Positions 6,414 through 16,397 of a DNA stretch of 44,683 nucleotides are shown here, in pieces. Position 1 is the stretch's first letter. Each line of letters begins with the position of its first letter. This DNA is from a virus. Below the pieces are notes generated by a model. It did not search any database. It had not been told where the DNA came from and saw only the letters and a list, made by a program, of their open reading frames with translations. The translations under genes were made by a program, and so were the position numbers. The stretch lies in UHGV virus genome UHGV-0176991. The stretch is one strand, 5' to 3'.

Positions 6414-6650
6414 TTACTCGCTGTCGCCTTCTGTAAGGCTATCGTCTATTAATTCAAATTTACCGTTTGAATGTTGAATGGCTTCTTGCCCACAATGGTC
6501 GCAAACCACCAGTTTATCGAATCCGTCAAACTCATCCCCGACTACACAAGAAAGTACAAATTTATGTTTTGTACATACTTCTTGCGGTTCGCCGAAAATT
6601 GCCCAGAAACCTTTAGCTATAGCTCCTGTGATTATGTTCATATCTGTCAC
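6414..6650 (-). CDS. small zinc-ribbon protein (CxxH...CDHCG)
   Basis: 78 aa; CTKHKF...VVCDHCGQ. Confidence 0.5.
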   Translation of the reverse strand: MTDMNIITGAIAKGFWAIFGEPQEVCTKHKFVLSCVVGDEFDGFDKLVVCDHCGQEAIQHSNGKFELIDDSLTEGDSE

Positions 6651-11525: not shown

Positions 11526-11654
11526 ATGAAAGATTATAGCGAAGTGACTTTAGGTGAGTTGCAGGACGAGTACGAAGATATGCTCTACCCGTTCATCTGC
11601 GACGGTGATTACAACGGCGTCTATAACGGAGTGAGCGAAGAATATGAACAATAA
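11526..11654 (+). CDS. hypothetical small protein (42 aa)
   Basis: ATG with GAGGAGAGA SD 8 nt upstream; overlaps start of next gene. Confidence 0.35.
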   Translation: MKDYSEVTLGELQDEYEDMLYPFICDGDYNGVYNGVSEEYEQ

Positions 11655-12288
11655 AAACGAAGTATTCGAGTACCTGATTGACCAACTACGGCAGCAGGTG
11701 AATAACAACCAGTGCGAAGACCTGGTGCACGAGGTGCAGTCACTTAAGAACCAGTTACGTGACGCGTCGGCGCAGATTAAGGAGTTACATCTGGCACTGG
11801 CCAAAGCTACTGGTGATGCGGAGGCGTACAAACTTATCCGCAAACAGGAGCAATCTGGTTGCCGTAAAGAAGATACTCAGGTTACAGAACCGTGGGTTAA
11901 GTGGGAGGGCGGGGAGTGCCCGGTGGACCGTGGCCAACAAGTTGACGTTATATTTCGGGATGGGGGGAGTGCCGGACCCCTCGGTGCCAGCTATTTCAGA
12001 TGGAAACACATCGGCAACATGGATGACGTCATCCGTTACCGTGTCGTAAGGCTGGATTGCAAGCACGATTGGATTATCGCTCCCGGATTGTTTATTGCCG
12101 AAGGCCACAAGGATAATGTGCCTGGTAGTCGGTTTTGCCGCGAGTGCGGTGCTCATGAGTGGGATGACCCAGAGTATGAACCGAAAGACCATACGCAGAA
12201 ATGCAAACACGAGTTGGAGTGGGGGCATTACTACCCTAACGGCGAACAGTATAGGCGTTGCGCTAAATGCGGGGTGATAGCCGAATGA
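11644..12288 (+). CDS. hypothetical protein, N-terminal coiled coil, C-terminal Cys/His zinc-ribbon repeats
   Basis: 214 aa; CRECGAHEW and CKHELEW...RCAKCG. Confidence 0.55.
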   Translation: MNNKNEVFEYLIDQLRQQVNNNQCEDLVHEVQSLKNQLRDASAQIKELHLALAKATGDAEAYKLIRKQEQSGCRKEDTQVTEPWVKWEGGECPVDRGQQVDVIFRDGGSAGPLGASYFRWKHIGNMDDVIRYRVVRLDCKHDWIIAPGLFIAEGHKDNVPGSRFCRECGAHEWDDPEYEPKDHTQKCKHELEWGHYYPNGEQYRRCAKCGVIAE

Positions 12289-13418: not shown

Positions 13419-13881
13419 TGGATTGCATTTTACCGCAGCGTTTGAGGGGTTCCGCGGAACTGCGTACCGTGCTACGCCCAACGAGAAGTACCTGACTATT
13501 GGTTACGGGCATTACGGACCGGACGTAACACCGGGCAAGACCATCACACCTGGTCAGGGCCTCCTGCTACTGAATCGCGATATGGCTAAGGCTGTAGCCG
13601 CGGTTGACGCCGCAGCCCACCATTCGCTTACACAAGCTCAGTTCGATGCAGTGTGCGACCTGGTGTATAACGCAGGCGCTGGTGTGATTGCCGCTACTAC
13701 CGGCACGGGTAAGGCACTGCGTTCCGGTGATGTTGCGACGCTGCGGGCTAAGCTGGCGCTGTTCATCAACCAGAACGGCAAACCGATACTTGGACTGCGT
13801 CGTCGTACAGCCGGTCGTCTGGCGCTGTTCGACGGTAAACCGTGGCAGGAGGCTGAGTCTATCGGGAGGGCTGTTAAATGA
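13396..13881 (+). CDS. endolysin, glycoside hydrolase family 24 (T4/lambda R-type lysozyme)
   Basis: FEGFRGTAYRATPNEKYLTIGYGH catalytic signature; start set at GTG 13396 with GGAGGG SD (ORF track start 13345). Confidence 0.8.
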   Translation: MSRNISDNGLHFTAAFEGFRGTAYRATPNEKYLTIGYGHYGPDVTPGKTITPGQGLLLLNRDMAKAVAAVDAAAHHSLTQAQFDAVCDLVYNAGAGVIAATTGTGKALRSGDVATLRAKLALFINQNGKPILGLRRRTAGRLALFDGKPWQEAESIGRAVK

Positions 13882-14040: not shown

Positions 14041-14113
14041 CCAATTGACACCTGAGACTAATCCGACGATACTTAAATCACCTCCTGTTCCATCCCTCTG
14101 CTCTCCAGTTTTA

Positions 14114-14148
14114 TCCCGGCCCTGACCCAGCCGGGATTTTTTTTATCT
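14114..14148 (+). terminator. intrinsic terminator
   Basis: tcccggc-cctgaccca-gccggga followed by tttttttta. Confidence 0.65.
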
Positions 14149-14166
14149 ATTTTCTGTAATGACTAG

Positions 14167-14195
14167 TTGACTATTACCTTAGACCCTATTATATT
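14167..14195 (+). promoter_or_regulatory. sigma70-type promoter TTGACT-17-TATATT
   Basis: ttgactattaccttagaccctattatatt upstream of small-gene cluster. Confidence 0.5.
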
Positions 14196-14228: not shown

Positions 14229-14378
14229 ATGAAAATCACAGATATTGAAGCATTCAAAGACGCACAACTGATGGCACGCATCGCCGTTAGCAACCTGAGC
14301 AACAGTATCCCGGCGGATGCGTTCTGGTTCGCCGCGATGCAGACACTGAAAGCAGCTTATGCAGGAGAGAAGAAATGA
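14229..14378 (+). CDS. hypothetical small protein (49 aa)
   Basis: Hand translation; GGAG SD; ATGA overlap with next ORF. Confidence 0.4.
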   Translation: MKITDIEAFKDAQLMARIAVSNLSNSIPADAFWFAAMQTLKAAYAGEKK

Positions 14379-14533
14379 GCGAACACGGTGAAGTAAGCCA
14401 ACCATTACGAGTAGGCCGTAAAGTCAATCACACCCCGTTCCCGACACGCGAGGAACTGATGAAACGTAACAGTTTCCCGGGGCCGGACAAGAACAAGTAT
14501 CTCAATCGCATGTGGGGAGAGCGTAAAGAATGA
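14375..14533 (+). CDS. hypothetical small protein (52 aa)
   Basis: Hand translation; translationally coupled string. Confidence 0.4.
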   Translation: MSEHGEVSQPLRVGRKVNHTPFPTREELMKRNSFPGPDKNKYLNRMWGERKE

Positions 14534-14700
14534 AAAAGTTAATTGCAGATGTTGAGCTTGGCGATGTTATCCGTATTGATGATGACTACGGCGGCTACGA
14601 CGTAGTGGTGAAGCGCATCGAGTGGGATTCTATGTTGCCGTTTGTCACGATTAACCGCGAAATCATGTTCGCTAAAACTGATTGGGTAGAGGTTCGATAA
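14530..14700 (+). CDS. hypothetical small protein (56 aa)
   Basis: Hand translation; overlaps neighbours by 4 nt. Confidence 0.4.
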   Translation: MKKLIADVELGDVIRIDDDYGGYDVVVKRIEWDSMLPFVTINREIMFAKTDWVEVR

Positions 14701-14945
14701 TGACTGACCGCGAATACGAAAGGATGATGGTAGAGGCCGTTGACGGCGGCGTAGACATCGGACACGTGATGCACGTCCTGAATACTAAAATTGCAGTAGC
14801 CGAGCAAATGGTAGAGTCGCTTTATGAGACGCGCCGTGAACTGATTAACCGCTTCAACCTGAACAAGTGCGAACATGAGTTCGACTACAATCCGAAGGAT
14901 ATGTGCGGGCAGTGTATTAAATGCGGGGTACAGCGTCATGCCTAA
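14700..14945 (+). CDS. small zinc-ribbon protein (CEHEF...CGQCIKCG)
   Basis: Start at internal ATG 14700 of ORF 14682..14945. Confidence 0.5.
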   Translation: MTDREYERMMVEAVDGGVDIGHVMHVLNTKIAVAEQMVESLYETRRELINRFNLNKCEHEFDYNPKDMCGQCIKCGVQRHA

Positions 14946-15177
14946 AATCACAATAGCATCACTCGAACGCCGTATTCTGGTGCTTGAGTCTGAGAAACAG
15001 ACGTTAGGCGGGCAACTGTCAATTAACGGTGAGTTTCAACTGGAGGCGTTTAAGTTGTTGCTTGATAAGTTGAAAGAGGGTGAAAAGCCTTGTGCACATG
15101 ACTACTACCTACATGTGGTTGGTGGGTTACATCGCGCCACATGCATTAAGTGCGGTGAAACGTATGGAGTCGCCTAA
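14938..15177 (+). CDS. small zinc-ribbon protein (CAHDYY...CIKCG)
   Basis: Start at internal ATG of ORF 14875..15177. Confidence 0.5.
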   Translation: MPKITIASLERRILVLESEKQTLGGQLSINGEFQLEAFKLLLDKLKEGEKPCAHDYYLHVVGGLHRATCIKCGETYGVA

Positions 15178-15346
15178 ACCAGTAGTTATTGATGGCGTCC
15201 TGTGGAAACCCTACTCGGTTAACCACATCGACGCCGACGGGAAGAAGTTCAGCTTCTACATTTTTGCGATTAGCCGTGAGCACGCCGCCTGTGTGGTAGA
15301 CGATATACGAGAAACGGCGCGGCTTGGTGACGAGATAGTGGGGTGA
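15164..15346 (+). CDS. hypothetical small protein
   Basis: Internal ATG of ORF 15080..15346. Confidence 0.35.
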   Translation: MESPKPVVIDGVLWKPYSVNHIDADGKKFSFYIFAISREHAACVVDDIRETARLGDEIVG

Positions 15347-15609
15347 GTATGGAACAGATTGAACAACTCAAGAAGAACAACAAAGACCTAAAGAAGGCGC
15401 TTGATAGGATTAACGGTAAGTATTCAAAAGCAACTCAGGAACTAACCGCTGCGAAACTGGAGATTGAACACTTAACGCGTGTTCGCGACATTCTGGAGAA
15501 CGCAGAAACTTTGCGTAGGCAACGGGCGTGGACGAATACAACCGTATCAATTCTGATTGGTGTTGCGGTTGGAATGTTAGTTATGTGGGGTATCGGGTAT
15601 GTTCAGTGA
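15343..15609 (+). CDS. coiled-coil protein with C-terminal transmembrane segment
   Basis: 88 aa; VSILIGVAVGMLVMWGIGYV. Confidence 0.45.
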   Translation: MSMEQIEQLKKNNKDLKKALDRINGKYSKATQELTAAKLEIEHLTRVRDILENAETLRRQRAWTNTTVSILIGVAVGMLVMWGIGYVQ

Positions 15610-15769
15610 TATTAGCGCAGCAATCGAAGAAGCAATCTGGCGCCGCTACAACGGCGAGCAACAGCGGCACTTCTGCCTGGTGCAACGGGGTAACATGATT
15701 GCCGTAGTGCAGGACCGCGATAACAAATATCCGAATACGATGTGGACGACGAGGAATTTCTTAGGATGA
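15599..15769 (+). CDS. hypothetical small protein (56 aa)
   Basis: Hand translation; overlaps next start. Confidence 0.3.
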   Translation: MFSDISAAIEEAIWRRYNGEQQRHFCLVQRGNMIAVVQDRDNKYPNTMWTTRNFLG

Positions 15770-16002
15770 TTACCAGCATTCCGAACCTTATTAAAGAATT
15801 TGGTACGATGGCGGAGACATGCCGACAAACCGGCATCAACGAAATGACGATTGCGAAGTACAGCAAAGACGTTAACTGCGAGCGCCACGTAATTTATAAC
15901 AACCGTCTGATGACGCATGTTAAGACAAGCCCGGTGTTATTCACACGCCGCGGTATCACTAAAACTGAGCAACGCATTGCTAAAGAGGGGAGCGGGGAAT
16001 GA
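15766..16002 (+). CDS. hypothetical protein
   Basis: Internal ATG of ORF 15742..16002. Confidence 0.4.
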   Translation: MITSIPNLIKEFGTMAETCRQTGINEMTIAKYSKDVNCERHVIYNNRLMTHVKTSPVLFTRRGITKTEQRIAKEGSGE

Positions 16003-16178
16003 ATATTTTAGAATTACTTAGCAACATCGGTCTCAAGGTGTTTTGGTTTGCGTTTTTAATGGCTTTCTGGGTCAATCCCAAAACATTTACCAATCTACCA
16101 CGCTACATTTGGTGGCCTATGTTTTTCGGCCTGGTAACATCAGGTATTGCTGATGCCCTGTTGAGATTCGTAAAATGA
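15999..16178 (+). CDS. small membrane protein (59 aa)
   Basis: Hand translation MNILELLSNIGLKVFWFAFLMAFWVNPK... Confidence 0.4.
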   Translation: MNILELLSNIGLKVFWFAFLMAFWVNPKTFTNLPRYIWWPMFFGLVTSGIADALLRFVK

Positions 16179-16280: not shown

Positions 16281-16304
16281 AGCCCTCTACGGAGGGCTTT
16301 TCTG
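16281..16304 (+). terminator. intrinsic terminator
   Basis: agccctc-tacg-gagggct followed by tttctgt. Confidence 0.5.
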
Positions 16305-16397
16305 TACATCCCGCCCAATCCCCTTATATAATCCCTTTAGACGCGTAGGGCGCGTCTGGTGCGCTCTGATGGTCAGACGCATATGCAAGGGGATTCT

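What the first reader, a model, noticed from the sequence alone, without database searches (positions are those of the whole stretch)
14700..15177. Paralogous family of small proteins sharing a C-terminal CxH(D/E)(F/Y)...CxKCG zinc-ribbon motif
At least four proteins end in the same pattern: 14700..14945 (KCEHEF...MCGQCIKCG), 14938..15177 (PCAHDYY...TCIKCG), 11644..12288 (KCKHELEW...RCAKCG, plus an internal CRECGAHEW copy) and, more divergent and on the other strand, 6414..6650 (CTKHKF...CDHCGQ). Recurrent small zinc-ribbon modules suggest a family of nucleic-acid-binding or regulatory factors, possibly host-takeover proteins, that I cannot assign to a named family.
Basis: seen in the sequence. 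Interest (0 to 1): 0.45.

Follow-up and report, generated by a model that had tools for sequence, protein, structure and literature searches.

The report
Shuffled mini zinc-ribbon module in phage proteins
Three small accessory proteins of this Kagunavirus-like phage carry the same roughly 20-30-residue Cys-x-His...Cys-x-x-Cys-Gly zinc-ribbon module on unrelated N-terminal domains; the module is real, mobile and uncurated, but its function is unknown and it is a fairly ordinary kind of domain.

Summary
The motif is real. C-x-H-[DE]-[FYWL]...C-x-x-C-G occurs four times in the six-frame translation, against 0 in 300 shuffles. All four copies lie in genuine + strand genes: A (14700-14945), B (14938-15177) and twice in C (11644-12288).

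- C carries two complete tandem modules. "CRECGAHEW" is the second knuckle of module 1, not a separate copy.
- A, B and C are not paralogous proteins. Their N-terminal helical domains are unrelated (hhalign probability 1.1% or less). Only the C-terminal module is shared (A or B tail versus C-type modules, about 95%).
- D (6414-6650, - strand) has C-x2-H spacing and no profile similarity (2-9%). It is a separate family.

In sister phages the module is optional. A carries it in 1 of 39 loci, B in 15 of 30 (B otherwise has at least 7 unrelated tails), and C-family proteins carry 0-4 copies. A profile search also finds the module in many other small phage-like proteins, in a RecT fusion, and as arrays in secreted bacterial proteins. 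No Pfam or NCBIfam model or solved structure covers it.

My best reading is a recombination-shuffled CHCC zinc-ribbon "head" on helical accessory proteins that probably binds proteins. Zinc binding and function are inferred, not shown.

The parts
14700..14945 (+). Gene A (81 aa). N-terminal helical domain (residues 1-56, 14700-14867) plus a C-terminal zinc module.
   Evidence: ORF. Matches phrog_1402 at E 3e-34. 247 homologues found. The N-terminal part is conserved in almost all of them, but the zinc tail is present in only a minority.
14868..14927 (+). Module of A: C57-E-H59-E-F...C72-I-K-C75-G. C69 is an extra, dispensable Cys.
   Evidence: hhalign against C-type short modules gives 95.9% over 25 columns; 2 of 150 column permutations reach that score.
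14938..15177 (+). Gene B (79 aa). Overlaps A by 8 nt. N-terminal helical hairpin plus a C-terminal zinc module.
   Evidence: ORF, sequence. Matches phrog_9023 at E 9e-39. AF2 pLDDT 80.6, with helices 6-22 and 29-46 and strands 56-61, 64-69 and 75-78.
15091..15156 (+). Module of B: C52-A-H54-D-Y...C69-I-K-C72-G.
   Evidence: invariant H54, C69, K71, C72, G73. hhalign against C-type modules gives 95.5%; 0 of 150 permutations reach the score.
11644..12288 (+). Gene C (214 aa). Coiled coil (residues 1-71), a beta domain (residues ~80-138), then two tandem zinc modules.
   Evidence: ORF. Matches phrog_6094, plus phrog_9174 and phrog_26870 for the middle part. AF2 model. 1094 homologues carrying 0-4 modules.
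12058..12150 (+). Module 1 of C (long-loop type): CKHDW-x22-CRECG.
   Evidence: It is deleted exactly and in frame in homologue P0241. The microhomology TGCAA(G/A)CACGA lies at 12058 and 12202.
12202..12273 (+). Module 2 of C: CKHELEW...CAKCG.
6414..6650 (-). Gene D (75-78 aa). A separate family of putative zinc binders (CTKH...SC...CDHCG at 6492-6575). It is not demonstrably related to the A/B/C module.
   Evidence: Matches phrog_32657. hhalign probability 2-9% against all module types. Homologues more than 90% identical occur in the early region of Kayfunavirus.
14045..14195 (+). Two sigma70-like promoter matches, in the ~350-nt gap upstream of the small-ORF cluster (14229-16178) that holds A and B.
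   Evidence: These are consensus matches only, and the count in the region is not above the shuffle expectation.

Best explanation
A, B and C share a small autonomous domain of about 20-30 residues, not a common ancestry as whole proteins. The module consensus is [E/D]-C-x-H-[D/E/N]-[W/Y/F]-x-hydrophobic, then a beta hairpin, then hydrophobic-C-x-K-C-G.

Inferred: it folds as a three-stranded zinc ribbon around one Zn2+, held by Cys, His (an i, i+2 pair on an extended strand) and the CxxC knuckle.

Shown: the module is mobile.
- It sits on unrelated N-terminal helical or coiled-coil domains.
- It is gained, lost and duplicated in frame by recombination.
- In genes A and B it is only one of several alternative C-terminal ends.

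Inferred mechanism: the conserved helical N-terminal part oligomerises or docks to a constant partner. The zinc ribbon is a compact, swappable binding 'head' that contacts a variable partner. That partner is most likely a host protein, in the context of host takeover or counter-defence. D is a different small Cys/His protein.
For: Motif is non-random: 4 observed against 0 in 300 shuffles.

Only the module is shared:
- The N-terminal domains are unrelated, hhalign probability 1.1% or less.
- A-tail and B-tail profiles match C-type modules at 95.9% and 95.5% over 25-27 columns.
- With the ligand columns held fixed and the other columns permuted, scores fall from 32-33 to 16-20. The observed score is reached in 2/150 permutations for A and 0/150 for B.

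Metal-type conservation:
- C, H, C, C and G are invariant in B homologues, with one Cys-to-His swap.
- The extra Cys in A is dispensable.

Fold: the AF2 model of B has a helical hairpin plus three strands, pLDDT 71-80 in the tail.

Mobility:
- C-family proteins carry 0, 1, 2, 3 or 4 modules of about 12 subtypes.
- P0241 equals the window's C minus exactly one module.
- The zinc tail is present in 1/39 A genes and 15/30 B genes. The same B N-terminus carries at least 7 unrelated tails.
- In sister phages the module is also fused to a domain that looks DUF551-like (my reading of the sequence, not scanned) and to another coiled-coil protein.

Wider distribution: a profile search of 1.84 billion representatives found 74 module-bearing proteins, 28 of them with two or more modules. 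These include all-module proteins of 60-190 aa inside runs of tiny phage ORFs, and a RecT fusion.

Context: sigma70-like promoters lie upstream of the A/B cluster.
Against: - Zinc binding was not measured.
- The AF2 model of C gives low confidence for its modules, pLDDT 44-64.
- Module alignments for the C family were selected with a regular expression, so the ligand columns are identical by construction. The homology signal rests on about 5 further positions.
- A versus B directly reaches only 77%, over the CIKCG knuckle alone.
- There is no DNA-level similarity between modules in different genes. Sharing is therefore old, or could be convergent.
- Nothing identifies a binding partner. The fold searches returned only coiled-coil noise.
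- That natural variants lack the module shows it is dispensable for whatever the N-terminal domains do.
Confidence: 0.55

Rival explanations
1. Nucleic-acid-binding regulators. The zinc ribbons bind DNA or RNA, and tandem arrays act like zinc-finger arrays to redirect host or phage gene expression.
For: - Many zinc ribbons bind nucleic acids (established knowledge).
- A Lys is conserved in C-x-K-C-G, and basic residues often follow the module.
- The module occurs in tandem arrays and in a fusion to the single-strand annealing protein RecT.
Against: - The proteins are acidic to neutral (pI A 5.5, B 6.8, C 5.8). Mean net charge of the modules is +0.25.
- The same module occurs in secreted or lipoprotein-type bacterial proteins with Cohesin, DUF11 or fn3 domains.
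- There is no similarity to any known DNA-binding family.
Confidence: 0.17
2. Pure structural staple. The zinc ribbon only stabilises or caps very small proteins, or acts as a rigid spacer. It has no binding specificity, and all function lies in the N-terminal domains.
For: - The module is optional in A and B and variable in number in C.
- It appears as bead-like repeats in giant secreted proteins.
Against: - A mere cap would not be expected to diversify into about 12 subtypes and be kept in up to 4 copies per protein.
- The alternative tails of B are whole different domains, which suggests the C-terminus is the functional variable part.
Confidence: 0.18
3. Independent or convergent zinc knuckles. 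The tails of A, B and C resemble each other only because any minimal CH-CC ribbon has these residues, so there is no common origin or shuffling between genes.
For: - A versus B directly aligns only over CIKCG, at 77%.
- There is no DNA similarity between modules in different genes.
- The profile also picks up 65 unrelated C2H2 arrays through partial matches.
Against: - Permutation control: the non-ligand columns add 13-16 score units, with 2/150 and 0/150 permutations reaching the observed score.
- D, a similar Cys/His protein, scores only 2-9%.
- Within the C family, module gain and loss by recombination is seen directly.
Confidence: 0.08
4. Whole-gene paralogy. A, B, C and D descend from one ancestral small zinc-ribbon gene by duplication within the phage.
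For: A and B are adjacent and overlap. All four end in or contain Cys/His motifs.
Against: - The N-terminal domains are unrelated.
- The four fall in four different PHROGs.
- D is unrelated by profile comparison.
- Most A homologues lack the tail entirely.
Confidence: 0.02

Closest known systems
Generic zinc ribbons (Pfam clan Zn_Beta_Ribbon, e.g. Zn_Ribbon_1 PF13240, DZR PF12773)
   Same: Two ligand pairs separated by a beta hairpin. The second pair is a C-x-x-C-G knuckle followed by a strand. The predicted sheet has three strands. Size is similar.
   Different: The first pair is C-x-H on an extended segment followed by an acidic and an aromatic residue, instead of a CPxCG-type knuckle. No Pfam model reaches its threshold: the best is Zn_Ribbon_1 at 16.9 bits against a cut-off of 25, and it covers only the second knuckle of C module 1.
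DksA/TraR-type small proteins (coiled-coil hairpin plus a C4 zinc finger; several are phage- or plasmid-encoded RNA polymerase secondary-channel binders)
   Same: Gross architecture of B: about 80 aa, with a helical hairpin followed by a small zinc module. The family description is from my own knowledge.
PHROG families 1402 (A), 9023 and 10200 (B), 6094 (C), 32657 (D), 4188
   Same: The window's proteins are clear members (E 3e-34 to 8e-52). phrog_6094 positions ~79-111 and phrog_4188 are matched weakly by the isolated tails of B and C (phrog_6094 also by A's), that is, by the shared module.
   Different: All are annotated 'unknown function'. PHROGs split the proteins by whole-length similarity and do not recognise the shared module.
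Eukaryote-type C2H2 zinc-finger arrays
   Same: Tandem small zinc modules. The hairpin plus C-x-x-C-G half of the profile (positions 11-29) matches them.
   Different: C2H2 fingers have C-x2-4-C-x12-H-x3-5-H and a helix. The module here has no such spacing and no helix. The 65 hits of this kind are partial and I regard them as spurious.
CSL-type zinc finger (DPH3/Kti11), a precedent for an i, i+2 first ligand pair (C-x-C...C-x2-C). From my own knowledge, not tested.
   Same: A small beta-rich zinc module whose first two ligands are separated by one residue.
   Different: Different ligands (Cys-Cys rather than Cys-His), different biology (eukaryotic diphthamide pathway), and no sequence match in the Pfam scan.

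Membership tests
Zinc ribbon (generic fold class) | Four Zn ligands arranged as two pairs separated by a beta hairpin | tested here: met
   C-x-H...C-x-x-C is present in A, B and twice in C. The ligands are invariant or nearly so among B homologues and kept among the few tail-bearing A homologues.
Zinc ribbon (generic fold class) | Three-stranded antiparallel sheet, with no helix supplying ligands | tested here: met
   AF2 model of B has strands 56-61, 64-69 and 75-78, with tail pLDDT 71-80. The modules of C are predicted with low confidence.
Zinc ribbon (generic fold class) | Stoichiometric Zn2+ binding with tetrahedral geometry | not testable with these tools
Pfam Zn_Ribbon_1 / DZR | Score above the curated gathering threshold | tested here: not met
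   Zn_Ribbon_1 scores 16.9 bits (cut-off 25) and DZR 14.6 bits (cut-off 27.3), for C only. A, B and D have no Pfam hit at E of 1 or less.
DksA/TraR C4 zinc finger | C-x2-C-x17-C-x2-C finger recognised by PF01258 | tested here: not met
   No hit, and the ligand spacing differs.
Treble-clef finger | Second ligand pair at the N-terminus of a helix | tested here: not met
   In the AF2 model of B a strand (75-78), not a helix, follows C69/C72.
C2H2 zinc finger | C-x2-4-C-x12-H-x3-5-H with a beta-beta-alpha fold | tested here: not met
   The pattern is absent from A-D. The profile matches C2H2 arrays only partially.
   N-terminal domains score 1.1% or less. D against all modules scores 2-9%. Only the modules of A, B and C are related.
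Known anti-phage defence proteins (PADLOC) | Match to a defence-system model | tested here: not met
   No meaningful hit.

The most novel reading that the evidence does not exclude
The CxH-W...CxKCG ribbon is a widespread domain family that has not yet been curated. Phages would use it as a recombination-shuffled, copy-number-variable recognition head, displayed on coiled-coil scaffolds, to bind or decoy variable host factors such as defence proteins. Genes A and B would then be cassette loci in which the zinc ribbon is one of many interchangeable heads. The same domain would have been recruited as a bead-like repeat in giant secreted bacterial proteins.
Probability: 0.15. Interest if true: 0.65.

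Novelty: new variant of a known kind. Interest (0 to 1): 0.36.

Why it matters
If the reading holds, it names and delimits a mini-domain that current libraries miss, in Pfam, NCBIfam and PDB. Hundreds of Guernseyvirinae 'hypothetical proteins', and many small ORFs in metagenomic phage contigs, could then be annotated at domain level.

The head-swapping pattern in genes A, B and C marks them as candidates for host-interaction or counter-defence genes in a phage group used for therapy and biocontrol (Kagunavirus, Jerseyvirus). It is not a new principle: small zinc ribbons and mosaic accessory genes are both common in phages.

Tried and rejected
Searches that found nothing:
- Pfam, NCBIfam and PADLOC scans of A-D and of multi-module relatives gave no family for the module.
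- Foldseek against BFVD returned only the protein's own uncharacterised family.
- The PDB sequence-profile search had a best E of 0.015, from partial CxxCG knuckles of ribosomal proteins and Rpb12.
- Literature searches (Kagunavirus or Guernseyvirinae with zinc; zinc ribbon with anti-defence; CHCC) found nothing on these proteins.
- tblastn of a non-Kagunavirus multi-module protein (P0433) against isolated phages gave no match.
- blastn between module DNAs of different genes gave no cross-match.
- The alternative heads of B matched no annotated PHROG.

Ideas rejected:
- DksA/TraR-like: no sequence or structural match.
- Treble clef: no helix after the second ligand pair.
- D as a member: wrong spacing and no profile signal.
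- C2H2 relationship: partial matches only.

Full report
**Setting.** The window is a Kagunavirus-like siphophage of the Guernseyvirinae. The stretch 10500-16500 matches K1G, K1ind, hz69 and Golestan-type phages at 87-92% identity over about 70% of its length. Genes A and B lie in a run of about a dozen tightly packed small + strand ORFs (14229-16178), between the endolysin (ending at 13881) and the small terminase (starting at 16359). Gene C lies upstream of the lysis cassette on the same strand. Gene D lies on the opposite strand among replication and regulatory genes. The 350-nt gap before the A/B cluster holds two sigma70-like promoter matches, at 14045-14073 and 14167-14195. The count of such matches in the scanned region is not above the shuffle expectation.

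- The strict pattern C.H[DE][FYWL]-x(5-30)-C..CG occurs exactly four times in the six-frame translation. The sites are 14868-14927 (A), 15091-15156 (B), and 12058-12150 and 12202-12273 (both in C).
- It occurred in none of 300 dinucleotide-preserving shuffles.
- No other real gene in the window carries a comparable Cys/His arrangement.
- C therefore has two complete tandem modules.
- D has C-x2-H, not C-x-H, plus an extra conserved Cys. Its probable start is the ATG at 6641.

**Are they a family?** Only at the level of the module.
- The four proteins fall into four different PHROGs, all of unknown function. They have no Pfam, NCBIfam or PADLOC family.
- Profiles of the N-terminal parts of A, B and C are unrelated, at hhalign probability 0.2-1.1%.
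- Profiles of the isolated tails behave differently. A against the commonest short C-type module gives 95.9% over 25 columns, and B gives 95.5% over 27 columns.
- A against B directly gives only 77%, over CIKCG alone.
- D against every module type gives 2-9%.
- Because the C-family modules were collected with a regular expression, I permuted all non-ligand columns as a control. The score fell from 32-33 to 16-20. The observed value was reached in 2/150 permutations for A and 0/150 for B.
- So positions beyond the ligands carry signal. These are the acidic residue and the aromatic after His, the hydrophobic residues flanking the hairpin, and the Lys in CxKCG.
- Weak cross-hits of the isolated tails of A, B and C module 1 to the same positions of phrog_6094, and of the B and C module 2 tails to phrog_4188, agree with this.

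**Anatomy and likely fold.**
- In 69 tail-bearing B homologues, H54, C69, K71, C72 and G73 are invariant. C52 is nearly invariant, with one natural Cys-to-His replacement. This pattern suits metal ligands and not disulfides.
- In A, C57, H59, C72 and C75 are kept, while C69 is replaced by Tyr or Arg in homologues.
- The AF2 model of B (pLDDT 80.6) has a helical hairpin (6-22, 29-46) followed by three strands (56-61, 64-69, 75-78). C-x-H lies just before strand 1, and CxxC lies in the turn between strands 2 and 3. That is a zinc ribbon, not a treble clef.
- The AF2 model of C gives a long N-terminal coiled coil and a well-predicted beta domain (residues ~85-134). Its modules are predicted with low confidence.
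- Zinc binding itself is inferred, not shown.

**The module is mobile and optional.**
- Among 120 representative A homologues, only about 15 carry the tail. The rest end after LNK with short or acidic/aromatic tails.
- In 39 IMG/VR loci the zinc tail of A occurs once, in K1ind1, where its DNA is 100% identical to the window.
- Gene B is present in 30 of those loci and has the zinc tail in 15. The same N-terminus (residues 1-42) otherwise carries at least seven unrelated C-terminal ends, some of them 50-aa domains.
- C-family proteins (1094 hits) carry 0, 1, 2, 3 or 4 modules (11, 26, 68, 13 and 2 of 120 representatives). The modules fall into about 12 subtypes and are often preceded by a conserved linker, SGCRKED(T/A)QEC.
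- P0241 is the window's C with module 1 removed exactly and in frame. The two module starts share TGCAA(G/A)CACGA, which points to unequal recombination between modules.
- In sister phages the module is also fused to what looks like a DUF551-type domain (my reading, not scanned) and to another coiled-coil protein.
- Database entries that fuse A to B exist.

**Distribution beyond this phage group.** I searched a 30-position profile of 40 modules against 1.84 billion representative proteins. It gave 157 hits at E of 0.001 or less. Of the 148 new ones:
- 65 are C2H2 arrays that match only the second half of the profile. I discount these.
- 74 carry full C-x-H-x-[WYF]...CxxCG modules, 28 of them with two or more.
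- 59 of the 74 are 250 aa or shorter. Several are nothing but 2-5 tandem modules.
- The three whose contigs were long enough to judge sit in runs of tiny same-strand ORFs typical of phage accessory regions; a fourth contig was too short.
- One hit is a RecT protein with a C-terminal module.
- Others are large secreted or lipoprotein-like bacterial proteins with arrays of the module or of the variant GHxWxxATCxxPxTCxxCG. Some of these also carry Cohesin, DUF11 or fn3 domains.

No Pfam or NCBIfam model covers these modules, and no solved structure matches. Among isolated phages the C family is confined to Guernseyvirinae and is always annotated as hypothetical.

**What it most likely does.**
- Shown: a shared, shuffled Cys/His mini-domain sits on unrelated helical N-terminal domains, in small accessory genes.
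- Inferred: it binds one Zn and forms a ribbon.
- Inferred with less support: it is a compact binding head, with the helical part providing oligomerisation or a constant contact.
- I favour a protein target over nucleic acid for three reasons. The proteins are acidic to neutral (pI 5.5, 6.8, 5.8, 4.4), the modules have about zero net charge, and the module also works outside the cell.
- The hypervariable C-termini of A, B and C, and their place in accessory clusters, fit host-interaction or counter-defence genes. No partner or phenotype is known.
- For D, the only functional hint is context. Homologues more than 90% identical sit in the early region of T7-like Kayfunavirus phages, directly after an ocr-like anti-restriction gene.

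**Comparison with known families.** The module is a zinc ribbon in the broad sense, but it fails the thresholds of every curated zinc-ribbon model tested. It is not DksA/TraR, C2H2 or treble clef (see the membership table). It is best described as an uncurated CHCC variant of the zinc ribbon. Fold and literature searches added nothing.

**Verdict.** The interpretation as a paralogous protein family is wrong in the strict sense and right at the domain level. D should be excluded. Novelty is modest: a new variant of a very common kind of domain, with an interesting pattern of module shuffling and head swapping. Function is unknown, and interest is moderate to low.

Noticed in passing
window 6414-6650 (-); L010 (LM33_P1) 1837-2064: Gene D has homologues more than 90% identical in T7-like Kayfunavirus podophages. 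There it sits in the early region, directly after the ocr-like anti-restriction gene and before the RNA polymerase. This points to horizontal exchange of an early accessory gene between unrelated phage families that infect K1 E. coli.
   Followed up: partly
window ~11881-12057 (residues ~80-138 of gene C): A separate beta domain with a W-x-GG-x-CPV motif. AF2 pLDDT is 80-89. It matches phrog_9174, 26870 and 16943, and has no Pfam family. It is present in only 30 of 120 C-family representatives, so it is another insertable module of unknown function.
   Followed up: partly
window 14938-15063 (B N-terminus); loci L017-L055: The conserved N-terminal 42 residues of B carry at least seven unrelated alternative C-terminal ends in sister phages. 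These range from short acidic tails to 50-aa helical or alpha/beta domains. None has a known family.
   Followed up: partly
window 14700-14867 (A N-terminus); proteins P0012, P0011, P0013: Most A homologues replace the zinc tail with nothing (GDTNA then stop) or with acidic/aromatic tails such as DDFDGDYRNGDFYEGAE. These resemble short linear protein-binding motifs.
   Followed up: no
proteins P0007, P0019, P0123, P0188, P0237: Database entries fuse A to B in three different junction types, or fuse B by frameshift to the downstream gene. They may be real fusions or assembly and sequencing errors.
   Followed up: no
window 15080-15346 (+): The mechanical ORF with a GTG start at 15080 overlaps B's zinc tail in another frame. 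Homologous fusions suggest the real downstream gene starts near 15164 (MESPKPVV...), overlapping B by 14 nt.
   Followed up: partly
window 14045-14073 and 14167-14195 (+): Two sigma70-like promoter matches (10 of 12 positions each) lie in the 350-nt non-coding gap between the endolysin and the small-ORF cluster. A further match lies at 16303-16332, before the small terminase.
   Followed up: no
L001 (phage hz69) 6554-6850: The relative hz69 carries a different annotated 'zinc finger protein' (MSEMKPCRCCG...) in the same small-ORF cluster. The window has no counterpart.
   Followed up: partly
proteins P0367, P0395, P0399, P0416, P0430, P0448: Secreted or lipoprotein-like bacterial proteins, up to 4195 aa, contain arrays of the same module or of the variant GHxWxxATCxxPxTCxxCG. 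No Pfam or NCBIfam model covers these repeats.
   Followed up: partly
L011 (metagenomic contig) 224-2220: A five-module protein (P0465) lies two genes downstream of a nicotinate phosphoribosyltransferase gene, on a short phage-like contig.
   Followed up: no
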